From: Fimbriosthenelais zetlandica
Taxonomy: Eukaryota
DNA: 64,000 bases
NCBI GenBank assembly: GCA_977030845.1
Contig: OZ365118.1
Span: 3,410,001 to 3,474,000 of the forward strand
Reading direction: 5' to 3'
Below, in pieces: positions 21,001 to 57,000 of the stretch. Numbering within the stretch: position 1 is the first letter of the stretch; every line of letters begins with the position of its first letter. Made by a program: the position numbers.

Positions 21001-24000
21001 TAGAGAAAACAGAGGATGTTAGAGACATCAGGGAGGAGTGGAGGTGCAGGCTCATGATCTATAATACTTTAAAAGACACGAGCACGAGATGGAATACCAA
21101 TATAGGTCCACGAGTGCCAGCCCCGAGTCTGGCCCTCTCATCTAGCCATCTACATCCATTTGTCATTCATGCTTTATCTTTAGACTTGCTACTGTCTCTG
21201 CAACTTTTAAACCATTATTCAACAAAGATTATCCCAAGTTCAAACTGGATTTGACAGAAGGAAATCTCATATACATAGAGGCGAATTCAACATTGAACGA
21301 AGGGAAAATATCAGGGGAATAAAGAATTTCGGATGATGAATTAAGATGAAAGAGACCTTGACAAATCTAAAGACAGAGACAGACAGATGGGTTTTCTTTT
21401 ATAGTTGAACTGGTCCAGCATGAGGAGCATCCCTTCACGGGGCGACCATCACAGGGACGACCACGTGATCCCTGACCCCATTAACTGACCCCACTGACCT
21501 CTACCCTGTGTGGTCATGCCAATGTCCAGTCACAGGTGTGATATGTATGGTGAATGATAAGATAATAATGAGGGCTATATGTACGCTCACTTATCCCGGC
21601 TAAATGTCCGCTTTATACGGTATACATCTACAATACCATGACCTTCTCAATTTCACCCAGCTTTTGTGTCGTTCTGAATCAAAAGACCAAAAGAAAACAG
21701 ATCTTATTGGCCACGGAAACGACCAAAAGTGGTCATCACTCATGGCTTTGACTTGGGATCTTTCTCTGGGTACTTTCCGGTTCACATGAATTCACTGATC
21801 ATGAAAATTCTTTAAGAATTCTTGTAAAATACCAGGGAAAGGAATGAGGAATCTGGAGGGACTGTCTCAAACGTTTTCTAAATAACAGTCATTATAGGAA
21901 ATTTTAGAACGGTTTGTATTTGAAAAAGTGGAAATTGCCTTTCTCGGGTGGGGAGGTTTGAGGCAGATTTACACACACATCAGTCATTGAGACAGCTGTG
22001 AGCGGTGGGTCGTGGTTTGTCATTGTCATTTACTGTATTCCGCTCTCACTAATTCCCGCTCCCAGCCATCATTTCTAACCTGACTGACTCAATATCTCTT
22101 CCCCAGTGATCGTCAGACTGACAGTCTATTTGTTCCTGTCCATCTCCCTCTCTTCTCTCTGTAATATAATGCAGATTCCTTTCTCCAGCTCTGCCTTCAC
22201 CGGAGCAGATTAATTTGCTAAACACACAGGATGTTCAGCGGGCCATGTCAGTTCGTATGAAGCCCCTGCCATGTTCACCTTTCATTTCTCTAATTATCAC
22301 CTAAGGCAGTCAGGAATTAAATCTATAAACCTATAACTGGCTCCCACTACTGTGGACACTTCAACAATTATTTTCAACTTAATTGAAACTTAGGAGCAAG
22401 CCAAATTGTCCTGCCGGAGCCAGTGATGTTGGTATATATGACAGATGGTGTAATTATCATGAGTTCATCCCTACTCCTCCTAACTTATCCTAGAGTTACT
22501 TTACCTCTACTCACCCATTAAATATGAATAATGGGAGTTGTTAATTAATCTATTATATTGTCAGTGGGTGCATGTTGATGATTATAGAGCAGGGCATGCC
22601 TGGAGCTGAGCTTTCTAGGGGTGTGCGCTATATTAGATATACAGGAGCGTGTGTGGGGGTCGTAAGACATCAGCCGTATACGTTCCCACGTAGCCCCGCA
22701 TCATGTCACCCCCCCCCCCCCCCCCACACGTGTATGTGCACGCTGCGGCATGTGTCAGTCGCTATTAACACGTTAATTTATTCCCAATAAACGCACCAAT
22801 TTCTACCTATTGAGCTGGAATTGGAATCAGTTGTGGCAGTGATAATCTTATCTTGATTAAATCAAATTCCTGAATCGCTGCTTGGTATTTGTGAAATGAG
22901 GTTTGGGATGAAGTGAAATGAGCAATAATATGATGGCACAAGTTCAGAACTTAACTCAATGTTCAAGTTATTCTCATGTTATATTTTAGTAATATTTTGT
23001 TACAATTGCAAGACAATTTAAGACTCTTAGCTGAAGTTTGAAATCAGATTACTTAATTTTATAAACTGCTCAAAATGTATGCGATTCCAAACAAGTTGAG
23101 ACTGAGTTTGGGTATTAAATGTATGATTATATATACACGTGGCAAGCAGCAAGCCTGGATCCCGTATCAGTACATGTTAATCTGATTATTAGAGCTTTAT
23201 CTTGATTACTTTCTGAGATCCCTCTGTAATAATAACAGCCATATAGGCTGTGTAGATTGTAATGGGGATTGCTAGAGACTATAACGGTATGAATGACTAA
23301 TGTGTATGGGATTTATTATAGTGTATAAGTGAATACATGTAGATTACTGAATGCTATGATTAGATGCTTATCACATGATCTCAGTGTAGCAAGGGGGAAG
23401 ATTATTACAATTACGATAATGTTTCAGATTACTGTTGATTGAGAAATATAGTTTTAAAAACATATCAACTTGAAATTGGTGAACCGTACGATAGAGATTG
23501 TGAAATAAAATGGTTCAATCATACATTAAAAATATTTGTCTAAATCTTCATATCTCACTTTTACCATTTTTACAAAAAGAAATCAAATGAATGGGGAAAG
23601 GGATTGAGAGGATCGGTTCATAGTACAGTTGAAATAAGTCAAGCTACGCCATCATCATACAAAAATATTGAAGGACATTCTTGGCAGAATTATGAAAACT
23701 TTCTACATTAGTGACTCCATGTAAGTTGGCCATCGTCCAGTGAACCACCCACATAACTCAATCTAACATTTAGATCCTATTCACAGAGAAAGTTTTACAA
23801 ACTCAGTTATGAAAAAGATACTAATAGAGTTGGGAGCACACATGAAGGGAGAGGGCCGTGGAGAGTGCCAACCTAAAGCGTCTCAGTCATTGGTTATCAT
23901 GAAGACATTTCATGGATAAGATCCGAACTGAGTGCATCTTTATGAACTCATAGACTCATCAAAGATTCAGCTAAACTAGGTGAGTGATTTAAACGGTTAA

Positions 24001-54000: not shown

Positions 54001-57000
54001 TTATAAATATAAAACTTATCACTGAAATCTTAGAAATAACCACTCCAGACCTCTACAGCGAATAATAAGTGTCATACAGGCGGAGAATGAAGGTCTCTGT
54101 TCAAGTGGGAGAAATCGTCTCAACTTCTCCCACTTTCAACTCTCAAAAAACATGTTAGAGACATTTTCAATGAAGTAAACGTGACAGGGTGAATATTTTT
54201 ATCAGGCAGTGCCTGGAAAGCAATGTTCAGATGCTGACACAAGTTAAACAGGCAGGGCAGGCCTCAGTTTGCCTTCTTTATACAGGCATGGAATGAATAA
54301 CATTGATCTGTGACCAGATGCTTGAATGGCCTCCGGACTGTCTCATTGCAGGGAGTGGGTACAGTCACACATTGCCATGGCACTGAGCCTGTCTCCGGCC
54401 AGAGCCAGTACTGGGGACATGTTAGTTTCTATAGAATGATGCAGTTGCCTCAATTGTCAGTAGAAATTAGTACATTGCCCATTATTTGCCTTGATTCCAG
54501 CCACTCTCCGCCTTCCCATGGGGTATGCAAAGCTCTTGTGTGTATAAACCCACAAAGCGACCAAAGCTTCCAGGCACTTGTCTTTGAATTGTAGATGAAG
54601 TGTTCCTTTCCCAGCACTCTAACAAGTCTGAATCTAAAGCAGCAATGATGTCAATTGACGCATGAACTGATTCTGTCATATATGAGTGAATATTGTTAAG
54701 ATAATTATTGTTAAGCCATAATAAGACCCCCTGTGAGCATGATGGGAGACAAGTGTGATCTCCCGGGTATAGGCCTGGGGCTGATTTATTTAGGAGGGGG
54801 TTGGGAAGTTTAAGATGAAGTTATTCTATTTGTCAACTTGTTGAGCGAGGCTCTTGGACTGAGTTTGAGAGGGTAGCTGGTGAGAGTAAGTGAGATCTCA
54901 CAGTTCCGCCTCTATTCCTACTTCAGCCTCCTCCATACCTGGCCTCATTCACCCTCTATTGCCTCGCCATGTATTATTGCCTCTTGAGACTCAGTAAGAG
55001 TCTTGTACTCGATTGAAAAGCTACAAAATAGGCGACCCATGCACCGTCCCCTACCCTTACCCGAGGGCTGAATCACAAGCCCAAACTTTCACCGAACGTT
55101 TAGGTACTTCACACAAAGTGATTCAGATGGGGTCCATACAAGCCTCAGCCCTCTGAGTGTTTCTTTATTTAAAGGTTTAAAGATGGAGAATGTGTTCTTA
55201 AACTAGAACGTGTGTTAAGGGTTGTGTATATGTATGTGTAGGTCGTACACCCATTCTCTCACACATGCAGGTTTTGTGAAGGCTAGCTCGCTATCTGTTC
55301 TTGTCCGACTTTTAAAAGCGGTCCCGGCATTCAGACGTACATGCCTTTATTCTTCCATTACCATAAGGTCAATTCAATTTCGATTGGAGCGTGCCTTAGG
55401 TATGCCTTACTGTATGTGGGGCCTCCCTGGGTCATAGTGCCCCGACGGTGGCGCCACGCCTGATGGAAACCCAGAAATGACGTCATATGACGTGCCCGAC
55501 ATCACAAATATCTCCTCTCAAATTTCTTTTTTTTTTGCTCAAATTTTCACCTATTTTGTTAAACGTCAGATTTATTTCATGATATTAATGATAGTTTGAC
55601 ATTTTATGGGGGATTATTGTCTTTTATAGCCGCGATTTACTGGTTTCAACTCAATTAAATGAAATTAACTCATTAAATTCCAGCGATAACGTTTTAGTGG
55701 TACATTTTTACAGCTCCTGACTGAACAAGACAAGGCGTCCCATGTAGAGCTTAAAACAAATTAAGTCCATACCGGTCCACTTTAGATGTGTCAGTCATCA
55801 TGGCACCTCCCACCCACCGACCAATCATAACCTCACATACAACCCACGTGACCTGCCAGCTCAATTATAACACTCGTAATTATAACAATCCCGCCTCCAA
55901 ATTACTCTTCGTGATGGGTGCTGTCAGGAAAATTGCTCTAAAAATCTGTCTTTTTTCTCTATTTTCTCTGGGGCAGATAGAGGTTGACACGCAGGATGGG
56001 AGCGTAGAGACAAGGTGGATAGACGGTAGGACAGAGAAGGCGGATAGGAGTAAATATGAGAGGAAATATGAGCTAGAGGTATAGCGTTAAATCTGTGACA
56101 TTTCCACACAGCGCTGTGTTTTGAGATCATACACGTTGTGAGGGGATTTAAGCTACAGGCCTGGACTCCAGCCTGGGCTCTCATAGCTCCAGCCTGGGCT
56201 CTCATAGCTCCAGGCTATACCTACACTTTAAGACTGAGCCGGTGTCGGATCTCACTCCATGACAAACCTCCACTACGCTCCGGGGAGTGGAAACCTGTCC
56301 CGGCAAAAACCTCACCTCTCAAAACACAAGCTCACACCACTCCACGACTATTCTACTCCCCACAAACAAAAGATGACTTTATAAAAAGTGTCCCTTTAAG
56401 AAATGAAGGTCCCTACCGCCCTTAAAGTCACTTTGATGTGAGTATCTGTTTAGTTAAAGCGCAAGCTGACTATAGGAAATCTATTGGTTGGATTACAAGA
56501 AGAATGGAATCAAAATATATAGTTCCTTCTGTAAATTTGAATACTCTTAAAATCTCGAGTGATGCCGAGTGTTTCAATGAACTCAATGACCCTTTGTTCC
56601 CACCAACTCAACTTCTAAAATAAAATTGTGAATTAAATCTTAAAACAAAATTTCAAATTAACGCCACTGACATTATTTGTTAAAGCTGGACGCTAAGATT
56701 GATGCGAAATATAATTGGTTAGAAATGGGGATTTAATTTAATGAGAAATGTGATTTATGGGATTTTGAATTTATTTGTAAGGTAAAATAAGTGAATGTTT
56801 AAGAGTAGGGGAGGTGGTCAGACCCAGTGGGTCCACATTCTGACAAACAGAAGCTTCAAAACCCATATTTACTAACTGTACGCTTGGTTGCCCTGACAGC
56901 TGAGTGGAGCCGCTTGCCGGGTGGGGGCGCGCCAGTATAGCCAGCCAGCCAGTCAGTGTGGAGGGGGAAGAGTAGGAGGGAGAGAAGTGGGAGAAGGGAA

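What the first reader, a model, noticed from the sequence alone, without database searches (positions are those of the whole stretch)
21800..56760. Helically phased A/T tracts (about 10-11 bp) inside the AT-type blocks
Seen: tract positions about 21806, 21818, 21828, 21839, 21850, 21870, 21881, 21902, 21914, 21925, 21934 (period about 10.6); 39330, 39340, 39350, 39362, 39372, 39384, 39394; 38432, 38441, 38452, 38465, 38475; 48466, 48477, 48487, 48498, 48510, 48520, 48538, 48548, 48558, 48568; similar runs at 16342-16365, 30586-30656, 33086-33126, 46350-46435, 50824-51026 and 55520-55573. Established: A-tracts phased with the helical repeat produce intrinsic curvature and set rotational nucleosome positioning, and in C. 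elegans PATCs protect genes from germline silencing. Inference: many independent, non-homologous phased blocks imply ongoing selection or a chromatin-coupled mutation bias.
Basis: partly seen in the sequence, partly recalled or inferred. Interest (0 to 1): 0.65.

Follow-up and report, generated by a model that had tools for sequence, protein, structure and literature searches.

The report
Weak 11-bp A/T periodicity, not PATCs
This stretch of animal DNA carries a real but faint tendency for A/T-rich spots to recur about every 11 bases all along its length, a generic structural bias known from many genomes rather than the special phased arrays known from worm genomes.

Summary
Across the whole 64-kb window, WW and AA/TT dinucleotides recur with a period of 11.2 bp (bootstrap 95% 10.93-11.36; 0 of 500 at or below 10.6). 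Spectral power is 1.4-1.6 times that of dinucleotide-preserving shuffles (z 9-12). The signal is weak and coherence decays over about 25-40 bp.

It survives masking of tandem repeats, local direct repeats and long ORFs, and order-3 and order-5 Markov nulls. It occurs outside 21800-56760, in every AT class, and in the 88% of bases outside the 37 strongest patches.

AA and TT are phased with each other, which points to a helical-face signal rather than duplication. The strong patches share no homology.

Only two loci pass a scan-wide threshold, 33051-33225 and 55501-55725, each just downstream of a TGACGTCA palindrome.

No extended in-register array exists, so these are not PATCs. The 11.2-bp period fits neither the 10.5-bp helical repeat nor the 10.0-10.4-bp nucleosomal repeat and is unexplained.

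The parts
1..64000 (.). Diffuse window-wide WW and AA/TT periodicity. Period 11.2 bp, decay length about 25-40 bp, with SS in antiphase.
55501..55725 (+). Strongest phased W-rich patch. Period 10.2-10.4 bp. T-rich on the + strand (TT 44, AA 19 in 55490-55700). Starts about 25 bp downstream of a TGACGTCA palindrome and lies 1.3 kb upstream of the protocadherin-like ORF. Candidate +1-nucleosome-type signal.
   Evidence: Normalised power 24.0 against a scan-wide 95% shuffle threshold of 18.6; one of 40 shuffles reached 24.5. Homopolymer-tract phasing alone is modest: R/n 0.42, p about 0.03.
33051..33225 (.). Second patch that passes the scan-wide threshold. Period 11.6 bp. Lies about 100 bp downstream of a cluster of ATGACGTC/TGACGTCA sites and upstream of a perfect 22-bp x4 C-rich tandem repeat.
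   Evidence: Power 19.6; sequence; 7 tracts with R/n 0.78 at 11.6 bp.
21800..21945 (.). Short A/T runs are present, best period 10.7 bp, but it is not individually above shuffles.
   Evidence: p=0.093 (WW), 0.19 (AA/TT), 0.58 (A3/T3), each from 1000 shuffles. Not among the 37 regions.
39320..39400 (.). Borderline.
   Evidence: p=0.11, 0.052 and 0.064.
38425..38485 (.). Nominally significant, best period 11.3 bp.
   Evidence: p=0.002 (WW). Lies inside region 38301-38500.
48460..48575 (.). Nominal p about 0.03-0.05. Holds the second-highest predicted curvature in the window.
   Evidence: Predicted 36.3 degrees per 30 bp at 48481 (wedge parameters recalled from memory).
30586..30656 (.). Nominally significant, best period 11.3 bp.
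   Evidence: p=0.004, 0.001 and 0.005. Lies inside region 30476-30725.
32953..32960 (.). TGACGTCA palindrome (CRE-like by recall). A further ATGACGTC lies at 32972.
51398..51405 (.). TGACGTCA palindrome inside a CpG-rich, promoter-like segment (51001-51650) with repeated ACGTCACTTCCG. A phased patch lies at 51601-51775.
55478..55485 (.). TGACGTCA palindrome immediately upstream of the strongest patch.
57030..60062 (+). Context: single 1010-codon open frame that encodes a protocadherin-like protein with 6 cadherin stretches.
   Evidence: Pfam Cadherin E=1.2e-99. Best hits 68% and 66% identity (unnamed records). Best-identity named hit is the annelid Paralvinella palmiformis at 42%.

Best explanation
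The window carries the generic '10-11-bp DNA-structure periodicity' seen in many genomes, in a weak, diffuse form. A/T-rich dinucleotides, mainly AA/TT, tend to recur on the same face of the double helix, with G/C-rich dinucleotides in antiphase. The mean period is 11.2 bp and phase memory lasts only 2-4 turns.

It is a property of the noncoding DNA of this spiralian-like animal locus as a whole.

Mechanistically (inferred), such spacing gives DNA anisotropic bendability or slight curvature. It would be kept up either by weak selection for packaging or by a mutation and repair bias that follows the rotational setting of DNA on proteins.

On top of the background, two loci (55501-55725 and 33051-33225) are individually significant and sit just downstream of TGACGTCA palindromes. 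The first has a 10.2-bp, T-rich pattern about 200 bp long. I read it as a promoter-flanking nucleosome-positioning signal of the kind described at ubiquitous promoters of non-mammalian animals.

Shown: the existence, period, extent, strand symmetry and non-repeat nature of the signal. Inferred: the structural role, its cause, and the promoter reading. Why the period is 11.2 bp and not 10.0-10.5 bp is unexplained.
For: - Spectral peak specific to 10.7-11.8 bp in a scan of periods 2-30 bp.
- The signal is carried by AA/TT (ratio 1.42, z 9.6 in the 11.0-11.6 band). Smaller excesses come from CA/TG (z 3.4) and GC (z 3.1); the other 7 dinucleotide classes have band z between -2.3 and 1.6.
- Period 11.19 bp, bootstrap 95% 10.93-11.36. 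The Welch peak bootstrap gives 11.2-11.5, with 0 of 2000 at or below 10.6.
- WW-to-SS correlation oscillates in antiphase.
- AA-to-TT and TT-to-AA oscillate with amplitudes (8.0 and 12.8 x10^-2) like AA-to-AA and TT-to-TT (8.5 and 12.2), with offsets of +1.2 and -0.9 bp. That is a strand-symmetric helical-face signal.
- The signal persists after masking 2730 bases of TRF arrays (lag-11 z 12.0), after masking every exact 6-mer or 5-mer direct repeat within 4-70 bp (27% and 57% of bases), and after masking ORFs of 120 codons or more.
- It holds against order-3 and order-5 Markov nulls (z about 11).
- It is present in all three thirds of the window, in all AT classes, and outside the 37 top patches (lag-11 z 8.1).
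- The patches share no homology.
- The 3 TGACGTCA sites (0.45 expected) each lie within 300 bp of a patch in the top 1-4% of positions. Joint P is about 3e-4, a post hoc figure.
- Papers, read as passages or abstract only: 10-bp WW periodicity at +1 nucleosomes of broadly expressed promoters in worm, fly and zebrafish (PMC7706728, passages); 11-bp patterns spanning up to 50 bp in prokaryotes and lower eukaryotes (PMC1242344, abstract and section 9).
Against: - The 11.2-bp period is not what nucleosomal (10.0-10.4 bp) or relaxed B-DNA (10.5 bp) phasing predicts. The 10.0-10.5 band shows only a small excess (AA/TT ratio 1.16, z 4.3) and none at spacings of 30-100 bp.
- Predicted curvature is nearly the same as in shuffles: 1.3 times at the 99th and 1.8 times at the 99.9th percentile (wedge parameters recalled from memory). 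A curvature function is therefore not evident.
- No nucleosome-scale (150-200 bp) modulation of AT content was seen.
- Periodic power shows no relation to the 4 CpG-island-like segments.
- The link to TGACGTCA palindromes rests on 3 sites and was noticed after the fact.
- Only one 64-kb window was available, so 'genome-wide property' is an extrapolation.
Confidence: 0.55

Rival explanations
1. Classical nucleosome rotational-positioning code: WW every 10.0-10.4 bp where the minor groove faces the histones. This would be the main cause of the window-wide signal, kept up by selection or by nucleosome-coupled mutation bias.
For: WW and SS are in antiphase. AA and TT are phased strand-symmetrically. 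There is a small shoulder at 10.2 bp (AA/TT ratio 1.20, z 4.8). The strongest patch has a 10.2-10.4-bp period over about 200 bp.
Against: The fitted period is 11.19 bp with 0 of 500 bootstraps at or below 10.6. At lags 40-41, 50-51 and 61-63, where a 10.2-bp signal should peak, the WW autocorrelation has troughs. There is no power at 10.0-10.5 bp for spacings of 30-100 bp (0.2-1.3 against a shuffle mean of about 0.9). Coherence of 25-40 bp is far shorter than 147 bp.
Confidence: 0.2
2. PATC-like elements, as in C. elegans: extended arrays of An/Tn clusters in 10-bp register that shield genes from germline silencing.
For: Short A/T runs spaced 10-12 bp apart do occur. Per passages of PMC4947018, some non-nematodes have PATC-like structures. 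Per section 13 of bioRxiv 10.64898/2026.08.08.743475, oyster Helitron-derived satellites resemble PATCs.
Against: Fixed-period Rayleigh phasing of A>=3/T>=3 tract centres in 200-, 500- and 1000-bp windows at nine periods from 10.0 to 12.0 bp exceeded all 30 shuffle maxima in only 1 of 27 combinations. Tract density is about 38 per kb, only 10% above shuffles, and A>=5/T>=5 tracts are not enriched (211 against 219). The period is 11.2 bp, not 10. Even the best locus has tract R/n of 0.42.
Confidence: 0.03
3. By-product of slippage and short tandem duplications of about 9-13 bp. These would create same-base correlations at those lags with no structural meaning.
For: Two-copy tandem arrays with units of 9-13 bp are enriched: 41 observed against 10.4 expected from 20 shuffles. 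Exact 4-mer and 6-mer matches are in excess at distances of 8-13 bp.
Against: The excess of short duplications covers all unit sizes from 6 to 13 bp, not only 11. Masking them removes only about 12-15% of the lag-10-12 excess. The oscillation, with troughs below baseline and peaks out to 55-66 bp, survives masking of every exact 6-mer or 5-mer direct repeat. AA-to-TT cross-phasing is as strong as same-base phasing, which duplication does not produce.
Confidence: 0.07
4. Decayed remnants of a repeat family (satellite, MITE, Helitron minisatellite) with an internal unit of about 11 bp, too old or too dispersed to match within 64 kb.
For: PATCs in C. elegans are reported to derive from Helitron minisatellites (abstract of bioRxiv 10.64898/2026.08.08.743475). 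I could not compare the window with the rest of its genome.
Against: There were 0 HSPs among 42 patch sequences. Only 0.87% of the window matches itself. The signal is present in 88% of the bases outside the strong patches. No transposon domain appeared in the 20 ORFs scanned against Pfam.
Confidence: 0.1
5. No real feature: the eye picked chance alignments of A/T runs in AT-rich DNA.
For: The lead block and 3 other blocks of the 10 are not above their own shuffles.
Against: The window-wide statistics are far beyond all nulls tried (z 9-13).
Confidence: 0.02

Closest known systems
Genome-wide 10-11-bp AA/TT (WW) dinucleotide periodicity
   Same: Literature basis: Trifonov-type periodicity, recalled; described in PMC3372288, PMC7537859 and PMC1242344, which I read as abstracts and passages. 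The shared features are: AA/TT is the main carrier; G/C dinucleotides are in antiphase; complementary dinucleotides are phased strand-symmetrically; the signal is weak and spread over coding and noncoding DNA; phase memory is short.
   Different: The 11.2-bp period is the value these papers give for bacteria. For eukaryotes they report about 10-10.5 bp (PerPlot passages; introduction of PMC7537859). Here the host is an animal.
'Class A flexible patterns' of Larsabal and Danchin (PMC1242344)
   Same: An 11-bp bias present throughout coding and noncoding sequence, made of degenerate occurrences that span up to about 50 bp (abstract). This matches the 25-40-bp decay and the diffuse distribution seen here.
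   Different: These patterns were described for prokaryotes, yeast and C. elegans only (section 9). I did not look for the specific gapped motifs of their Figure 3.
10-bp WW periodicity at +1 nucleosomes of broadly expressed promoters in non-mammalian animals (Serizay et al., PMC7706728)
   Same: The patch at 55501-55725 has a 10.2-10.4-bp period, is about 200 bp long, is TT-dominated on the strand of the downstream gene, and starts next to a promoter-type motif. In that paper the signal extends more than 150 bp and TT peaks in the 5' half of the +1 nucleosome (passages).
   Different: No start site or nucleosome data exist here. The second significant patch has an 11.6-bp period. The window-wide background is not promoter-bound.
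C. elegans PATCs (Fire 2006, recalled; Frokjaer-Jensen 2016, PMC4947018)
   Same: Short An/Tn clusters spaced about one helical turn apart in noncoding DNA.
   Different: PATCs are in 'perfect 10-basepair register' over extended stretches, up to 1 kb (figure legend). Here there is no extended register, the period is 11.2 bp, and long tracts are not enriched.

Membership tests
PATC (periodic An/Tn clusters) | Clusters of 3-5 adjacent A or T at high density | tested here: not met
   2426 A>=3/T>=3 tracts against 2204 in shuffles. A>=5/T>=5: 211 against 219. About 38 tracts per kb.
PATC (periodic An/Tn clusters) | Register of about 10 bp | tested here: not met
   Period 11.19 bp, 95% 10.93-11.36. 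Only the 55.5-kb patch is at 10.2 bp.
PATC (periodic An/Tn clusters) | Phase kept over hundreds of bases | tested here: not met
   In the Rayleigh scan of 200-, 500- and 1000-bp windows, maxima fall within shuffle maxima in 26 of 27 period-by-window combinations. Decay length is 25-40 bp. This is a proxy; the original algorithm was not available.
PATC (periodic An/Tn clusters) | Located in introns of germline-expressed genes; protects against silencing | not testable with these tools
   No annotation, expression data or transgene assay.
Nucleosome rotational-positioning WW/SS signal | WW and SS in antiphase, with complementary dinucleotides phased symmetrically | tested here: met
Nucleosome rotational-positioning WW/SS signal | Period 10.0-10.4 bp | tested here: not met
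   Window-wide period is 11.2 bp. There is no 10.0-10.5-bp power at spacings of 30-100 bp. The feature is met only locally, at 55501-55725.
Nucleosome rotational-positioning WW/SS signal | Coincides with mapped nucleosomes | not testable with these tools
   No chromatin data. No 150-200-bp modulation of AT content was seen.
Bacterial-type 11-bp AA/TT periodicity | Period of about 11 bp, carried mainly by AA/TT | tested here: met
   E. coli periodicity is reported as carried almost only by ApA/TpT (abstract of PMC516772 in the listing).
Bacterial-type 11-bp AA/TT periodicity | Prokaryotic chromosome with unconstrained negative supercoiling | tested here: not met
   The genes in the window are metazoan: cadherin repeats, GT10 fucosyltransferase and BTB-BACK-Kelch. 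CpG observed/expected is 0.45.

The most novel reading that the evidence does not exclude
The 11.2-bp period may not be a blurred nucleosome signal. It could be a distinct, lineage-specific structural imprint in an animal genome, of the 'bacterial' 11-bp type. It would reflect DNA that spends evolutionarily relevant time in a non-nucleosomal or underwound state. Twist-absorbed supercoiling of about -0.06 would give 10.5/0.94, or about 11.2 bp per turn. Packaging by sperm nuclear basic proteins in the germline is another possibility. Selection or a packaging-coupled mutation bias would write this state into the sequence. The classical 10.2-bp code would then be restricted to promoter-flanking nucleosomes such as 55501-55725.
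Probability: 0.1. Interest if true: 0.65.

Novelty: new member of a known kind. Interest (0 to 1): 0.3.

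Why it matters
If the 11.2-bp period holds across this animal's genome, it would be an animal example of a period usually quoted for bacteria. It would bear on the old question of whether 10-11-bp periodicities report nucleosomes, supercoiling or something else. Atzinger and Lawrence dispute the supercoiling reading (abstract of PMC7537859).

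For the scan, the practical result is a caution. By-eye lists of phased A/T runs in AT-rich DNA mostly sample a weak background, and PATC-type claims need a test for extended register.

The two significant patches beside TGACGTCA palindromes are cheap candidates for promoter-flanking positioned nucleosomes in a spiralian.

Tried and rejected
- Tandem repeats as the source. TRF arrays at score 50 or more and 25 or more were masked, and the signal stayed.
- Local direct repeats as the source. Masking every exact 6-mer or 5-mer pair within 4-70 bp left the oscillation.
- Coding alpha-helix periodicity. Removing the 12 ORFs of 120 codons or more did not lower the contrast (0.0277 against 0.0261). 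The ORFs alone give a weak contrast (z 2.3).
- k-mer composition as the source. Order-3 and order-5 Markov simulations give no oscillation.
- Dispersed repeats. Self-BLAST and sensitive patch-against-patch BLAST found none.
- Structured RNAs. There were 0 Rfam hits at gathering score.
- Nucleosome-repeat modulation of AT content. None was seen up to a lag of 700.
- Link to CpG-island-like segments. None was found.
- Curvature. A wedge-model scan showed only slightly heavier tails than shuffles. The parameter table was recalled from memory and not checked against a source. The shuffle distribution used for the per-block percentiles was not AT-matched.
- Organism. Two protein searches gave best-identity named hits in an annelid at 37-42% identity, so I say only 'spiralian-like'. 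The third search, with a Kelch exon against longer proteins, found nothing.
- Literature. Searches turned up no report of an 11-bp periodicity in an annelid or mollusc genome. One search was dominated by unrelated hits, so this is weak evidence that the finding is not in print.
- Searches were re-sent in valid form. One search was dropped.

Full report
**What the window is**

The window is 64,000 bases with no N, about 41% GC (0.34-0.49 per kb) and CpG observed/expected of 0.45. Its recognisable genes are all on the + strand and are metazoan:
- BTB-BACK-Kelch exons at 915-2686.
- A single-ORF GT10 fucosyltransferase at 4840-5928.
- A 1010-codon protocadherin-like open frame with six cadherin stretches at 57030-60062.

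The best-identity named relatives are from the annelid Paralvinella palmiformis (37% and 42% identity). The closest hits overall (52-68%) are unnamed records, which I did not follow. I therefore call the source spiralian-like, probably annelid. I do not take it for human.

Between about 6 and 56.7 kb I found no Pfam-supported ORF: 20 ORFs were scanned, and a codon-usage ranking of 498 ORFs is. Rfam gave 0 hits. Only 0.87% of the window matches itself, all of it in six tandem arrays.

The quoted coordinates do hold short A3-6 or T3-4 runs and mixed W runs. Window-wide, the autocorrelation of WW, AA/TT and AAA/TTT shows a damped oscillation against dinucleotide-preserving block shuffles. WW peaks lie at lags 11, 22, 33-35, 45, 55-56 and 66, and troughs at 7, 16-17, 27-28, 40, 50 and 62-63. 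WW z reaches 13.7 at lag 11.

A Welch spectrum scanned blind over periods 2-30 bp puts all 12 top z values at 10.7-11.8 bp. At 11.4 bp the WW power is 1.57 times the shuffle mean (z 11.8). Other periods are at or below the shuffle level.

In 150-bp windows, 18.6%, 11.0%, 4.0% and 1.4% exceed the 90th, 95th, 99th and 99.9th shuffle percentiles. The whole distribution is shifted and has a heavy tail. The windows above the 99th percentile merge into 37 regions that cover 12.1% of the bases. Order-3 and order-5 Markov simulations give no oscillation (z about 11).

**The individual blocks**

I tested each block against 1000 shuffles of its own interval, with three indicators:
- Two more reach only p<0.05: 48460-48575 and 46350-46435.
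- Four do not: the lead block 21800-21945 (p=0.09-0.58), 39320-39400, 50824-51026 and 55520-55573.

These values are uncorrected for selection by eye. Five of the 10 blocks overlap the 37 regions.

Against scan-wide shuffle maxima (95% threshold 18.6; one of 40 shuffles reached 24.5), only two loci pass: 33051-33225 (power 19.6, period 11.6 bp) and 55501-55725 (power 24.0, period 10.2-10.4 bp). Even there the phasing of pure homopolymer tracts is modest, with R/n of 0.78 for 7 tracts and 0.42 for 20 tracts. The signal lies in W-rich patches generally, not in classical A-tracts.

**Properties of the signal**

- **Period.** A phase-0 damped-cosine fit gives 11.19 bp (block-bootstrap 95% 10.93-11.36; 0 of 500 at or below 10.6). 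A free-phase fit after TRF masking gives 11.34 +/- 0.16. The Welch peak bootstrap gives 11.2-11.5, with 0 of 2000 at or below 10.6. For AA/TT spacings of 30-100 bp the power peaks at 11.4-12.0 bp (18.9 against a shuffle maximum of 8.6, 0 of 40). It is at shuffle level at 10.0-10.5 bp.
- **Coherence.** The decay length is 26 bp (phase-0 fit) to 39 bp (free-phase fit). WW peaks of z 2-3 remain visible out to a lag of 55-56, with z 1.8 at lag 66.
- **Carrier.** AA/TT carries most of the signal (ratio 1.42, z 9.6 in the 11.0-11.6 band). CA/TG (z 3.4) and GC (z 3.1) add a little, and the other seven dinucleotide classes have band z between -2.3 and 1.6. In the 10.0-10.5 band AA/TT has only ratio 1.16, z 4.3.
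- **Symmetry.** SS oscillates in antiphase with WW. AA-to-TT and TT-to-AA oscillate as strongly as AA-to-AA and TT-to-TT, with offsets of about +1 and -1 bp. This is the mark of a signal tied to the face of the double helix.
- **Distribution.** The contrast has z 5.0 in 1-21799, 9.7 in 21800-56760 and 3.8 in 56761-64000. It is strongest where AT is 62% or more (0.033) but present in the two lower AT classes (0.018 each). It persists in the 88% of bases outside the 37 patches, with lag-11 z of 8.1. The 'blocks' are therefore the tail of a diffuse background.

**What it is not**

- **Not tandem repeats.** Masking TRF arrays at score 25 or more (2730 bases) lowers the lag-10-12 excess by only about 12-15%.
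- **Not slippage duplications.** These are enriched (41 two-copy arrays with 9-13-bp units against 10.4 expected), but the enrichment covers all unit sizes from 6 to 13 bp. Masking every exact 6-mer or 5-mer direct repeat within 4-70 bp (27% and 57% of bases) leaves the peaks and troughs.
- **Not coding periodicity.** The contrast is unchanged with the long ORFs masked.
- **Not a repeat family visible within the window.** There were 0 HSPs among 42 patch sequences.
- **Not PATCs.** With a proxy (Rayleigh statistic of A>=3/T>=3 tract centres at nine fixed periods in 200-, 500- and 1000-bp windows), the observed maxima lie within the shuffle maxima in 26 of 27 combinations. Long tracts are not enriched: A>=5/T>=5 number 211 against 219. 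PATCs are defined by clusters in perfect 10-bp register over extended stretches (figure legend of PMC4947018).
- **Not strongly curved.** Predicted curvature (wedge model, parameters recalled from memory) exceeds the shuffles only slightly, 1.3 times at the 99th percentile. Maxima of 38.9 and 36.3 degrees per 30 bp occur at 55944 and 48481, against 41 for a synthetic phased A6N4 control.

**Most likely explanation**

The window shows the generic 10-11-bp structural periodicity of genomes in a weak form. A/T-rich steps tend to fall on one face of the helix, which gives anisotropic bendability. The bias would be kept up by weak selection or by a packaging-coupled mutation or repair bias. That the signal exists, and that it is strand-symmetric, is shown. 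Its function and cause are inferred.

The period is the odd part. The papers I read give about 10-10.5 bp for eukaryotes and about 11 bp for bacteria (PMC3372288 passages; PMC7537859 introduction). The supercoiling reading of that difference is disputed (PMC7537859 abstract). Larsabal and Danchin describe 11-bp patterns up to 50 bp long spread through prokaryotic, yeast and worm genomes (PMC1242344). Their extent and diffuseness resemble what I see. I have no tested explanation for 11.2 bp in an animal.

**The two significant loci**

All three TGACGTCA palindromes in the window (32953, 51398 and 55478; 0.45 expected) lie within 300 bp of a patch in the top 1-4% of positions. The joint P of about 3e-4 is post hoc.

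The 55.5-kb patch begins about 25 bp downstream of its palindrome. It is T-rich on the + strand (TT 44, AA 19), runs about 200 bp at 10.2-10.4 bp, and lies 1.3 kb upstream of the + strand protocadherin-like ORF. This fits the 10-bp, TT-led WW signal at +1 nucleosomes of broadly expressed promoters in worm, fly and zebrafish (PMC7706728 passages).

The segment 51001-51650 is CpG-rich and carries repeated ACGTCACTTCCG. By recall this looks like combined CRE and ETS sites. The promoter reading is inference, and periodic power shows no general relation to the 4 CpG-island-like segments.

**What stayed unchecked**

- I examined no related sequence. Conservation, genome-wide generality and repeat status are therefore open.
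Table S4 of PMC4947018 (PATC content by species) and Supplementary Fig. S10 of bioRxiv 10.64898/2026.08.08.743475 (oyster satellites) may bear on whether spiralians carry PATC-like DNA.
- The original PATC algorithm was not available.

**Verdict**

It is a new member of a known kind. Interest is 0.3. What keeps it above the floor is the unexplained 11.2-bp period in an animal and the two promoter-adjacent patches.

Noticed in passing
window 32953-32979, 51398-51427, 55477-55486: Three TGACGTCA palindromes (0.45 expected) and six ATGACGTC matches (0.88 expected). Each cluster lies within 300 bp of one of the strongest periodic patches. They may mark unannotated promoters.
   Followed up: partly
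window 51001-51650: The only large CpG-island-like segment: 46 CpG, 53% GC. It carries repeated ACGTCACTTCCG next to TGACGTCA, which by recall looks like a housekeeping-type (CRE plus ETS) promoter. No Pfam-supported ORF lies nearby.
   Followed up: partly
window 33388-33474: Perfect 22-bp x4 C-rich tandem repeat, directly downstream of the 33.05-33.2-kb phased patch and the palindrome cluster.
   Followed up: no
window 57030-60062: A single 1010-codon open frame encodes a protocadherin-like protein with 6 cadherin stretches. Closest hits are 66-68% identical (unnamed records); the best-identity named hit is an annelid at 42%.
   Followed up: partly
window 915-2686 and 4840-5928: BTB-BACK-Kelch exons and a single-ORF GT10 fucosyltransferase on the + strand. 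A 31-bp x4 tandem repeat lies at 485-610, just upstream.
   Followed up: partly
window, whole: Excess of two-copy tandem duplications with 6-13-bp units (for example unit 12: 8 against 0.8; unit 13: 7 against 1.0 in shuffles). This is a slippage signature separate from the periodicity.
   Followed up: yes
window, whole: Almost no dispersed repeats. Only 559 bases (0.87%) match elsewhere in the 64 kb, all in tandem arrays, and no transposon domain appeared in the ORFs scanned.
   Followed up: partly
window, whole (lag 5): AA-to-AA pairs are 21% in excess at a spacing of 5 bp (z 7.2), while TT-to-TT shows much less (z 2.1). This strand-asymmetric half-period feature is unexplained.
   Followed up: no
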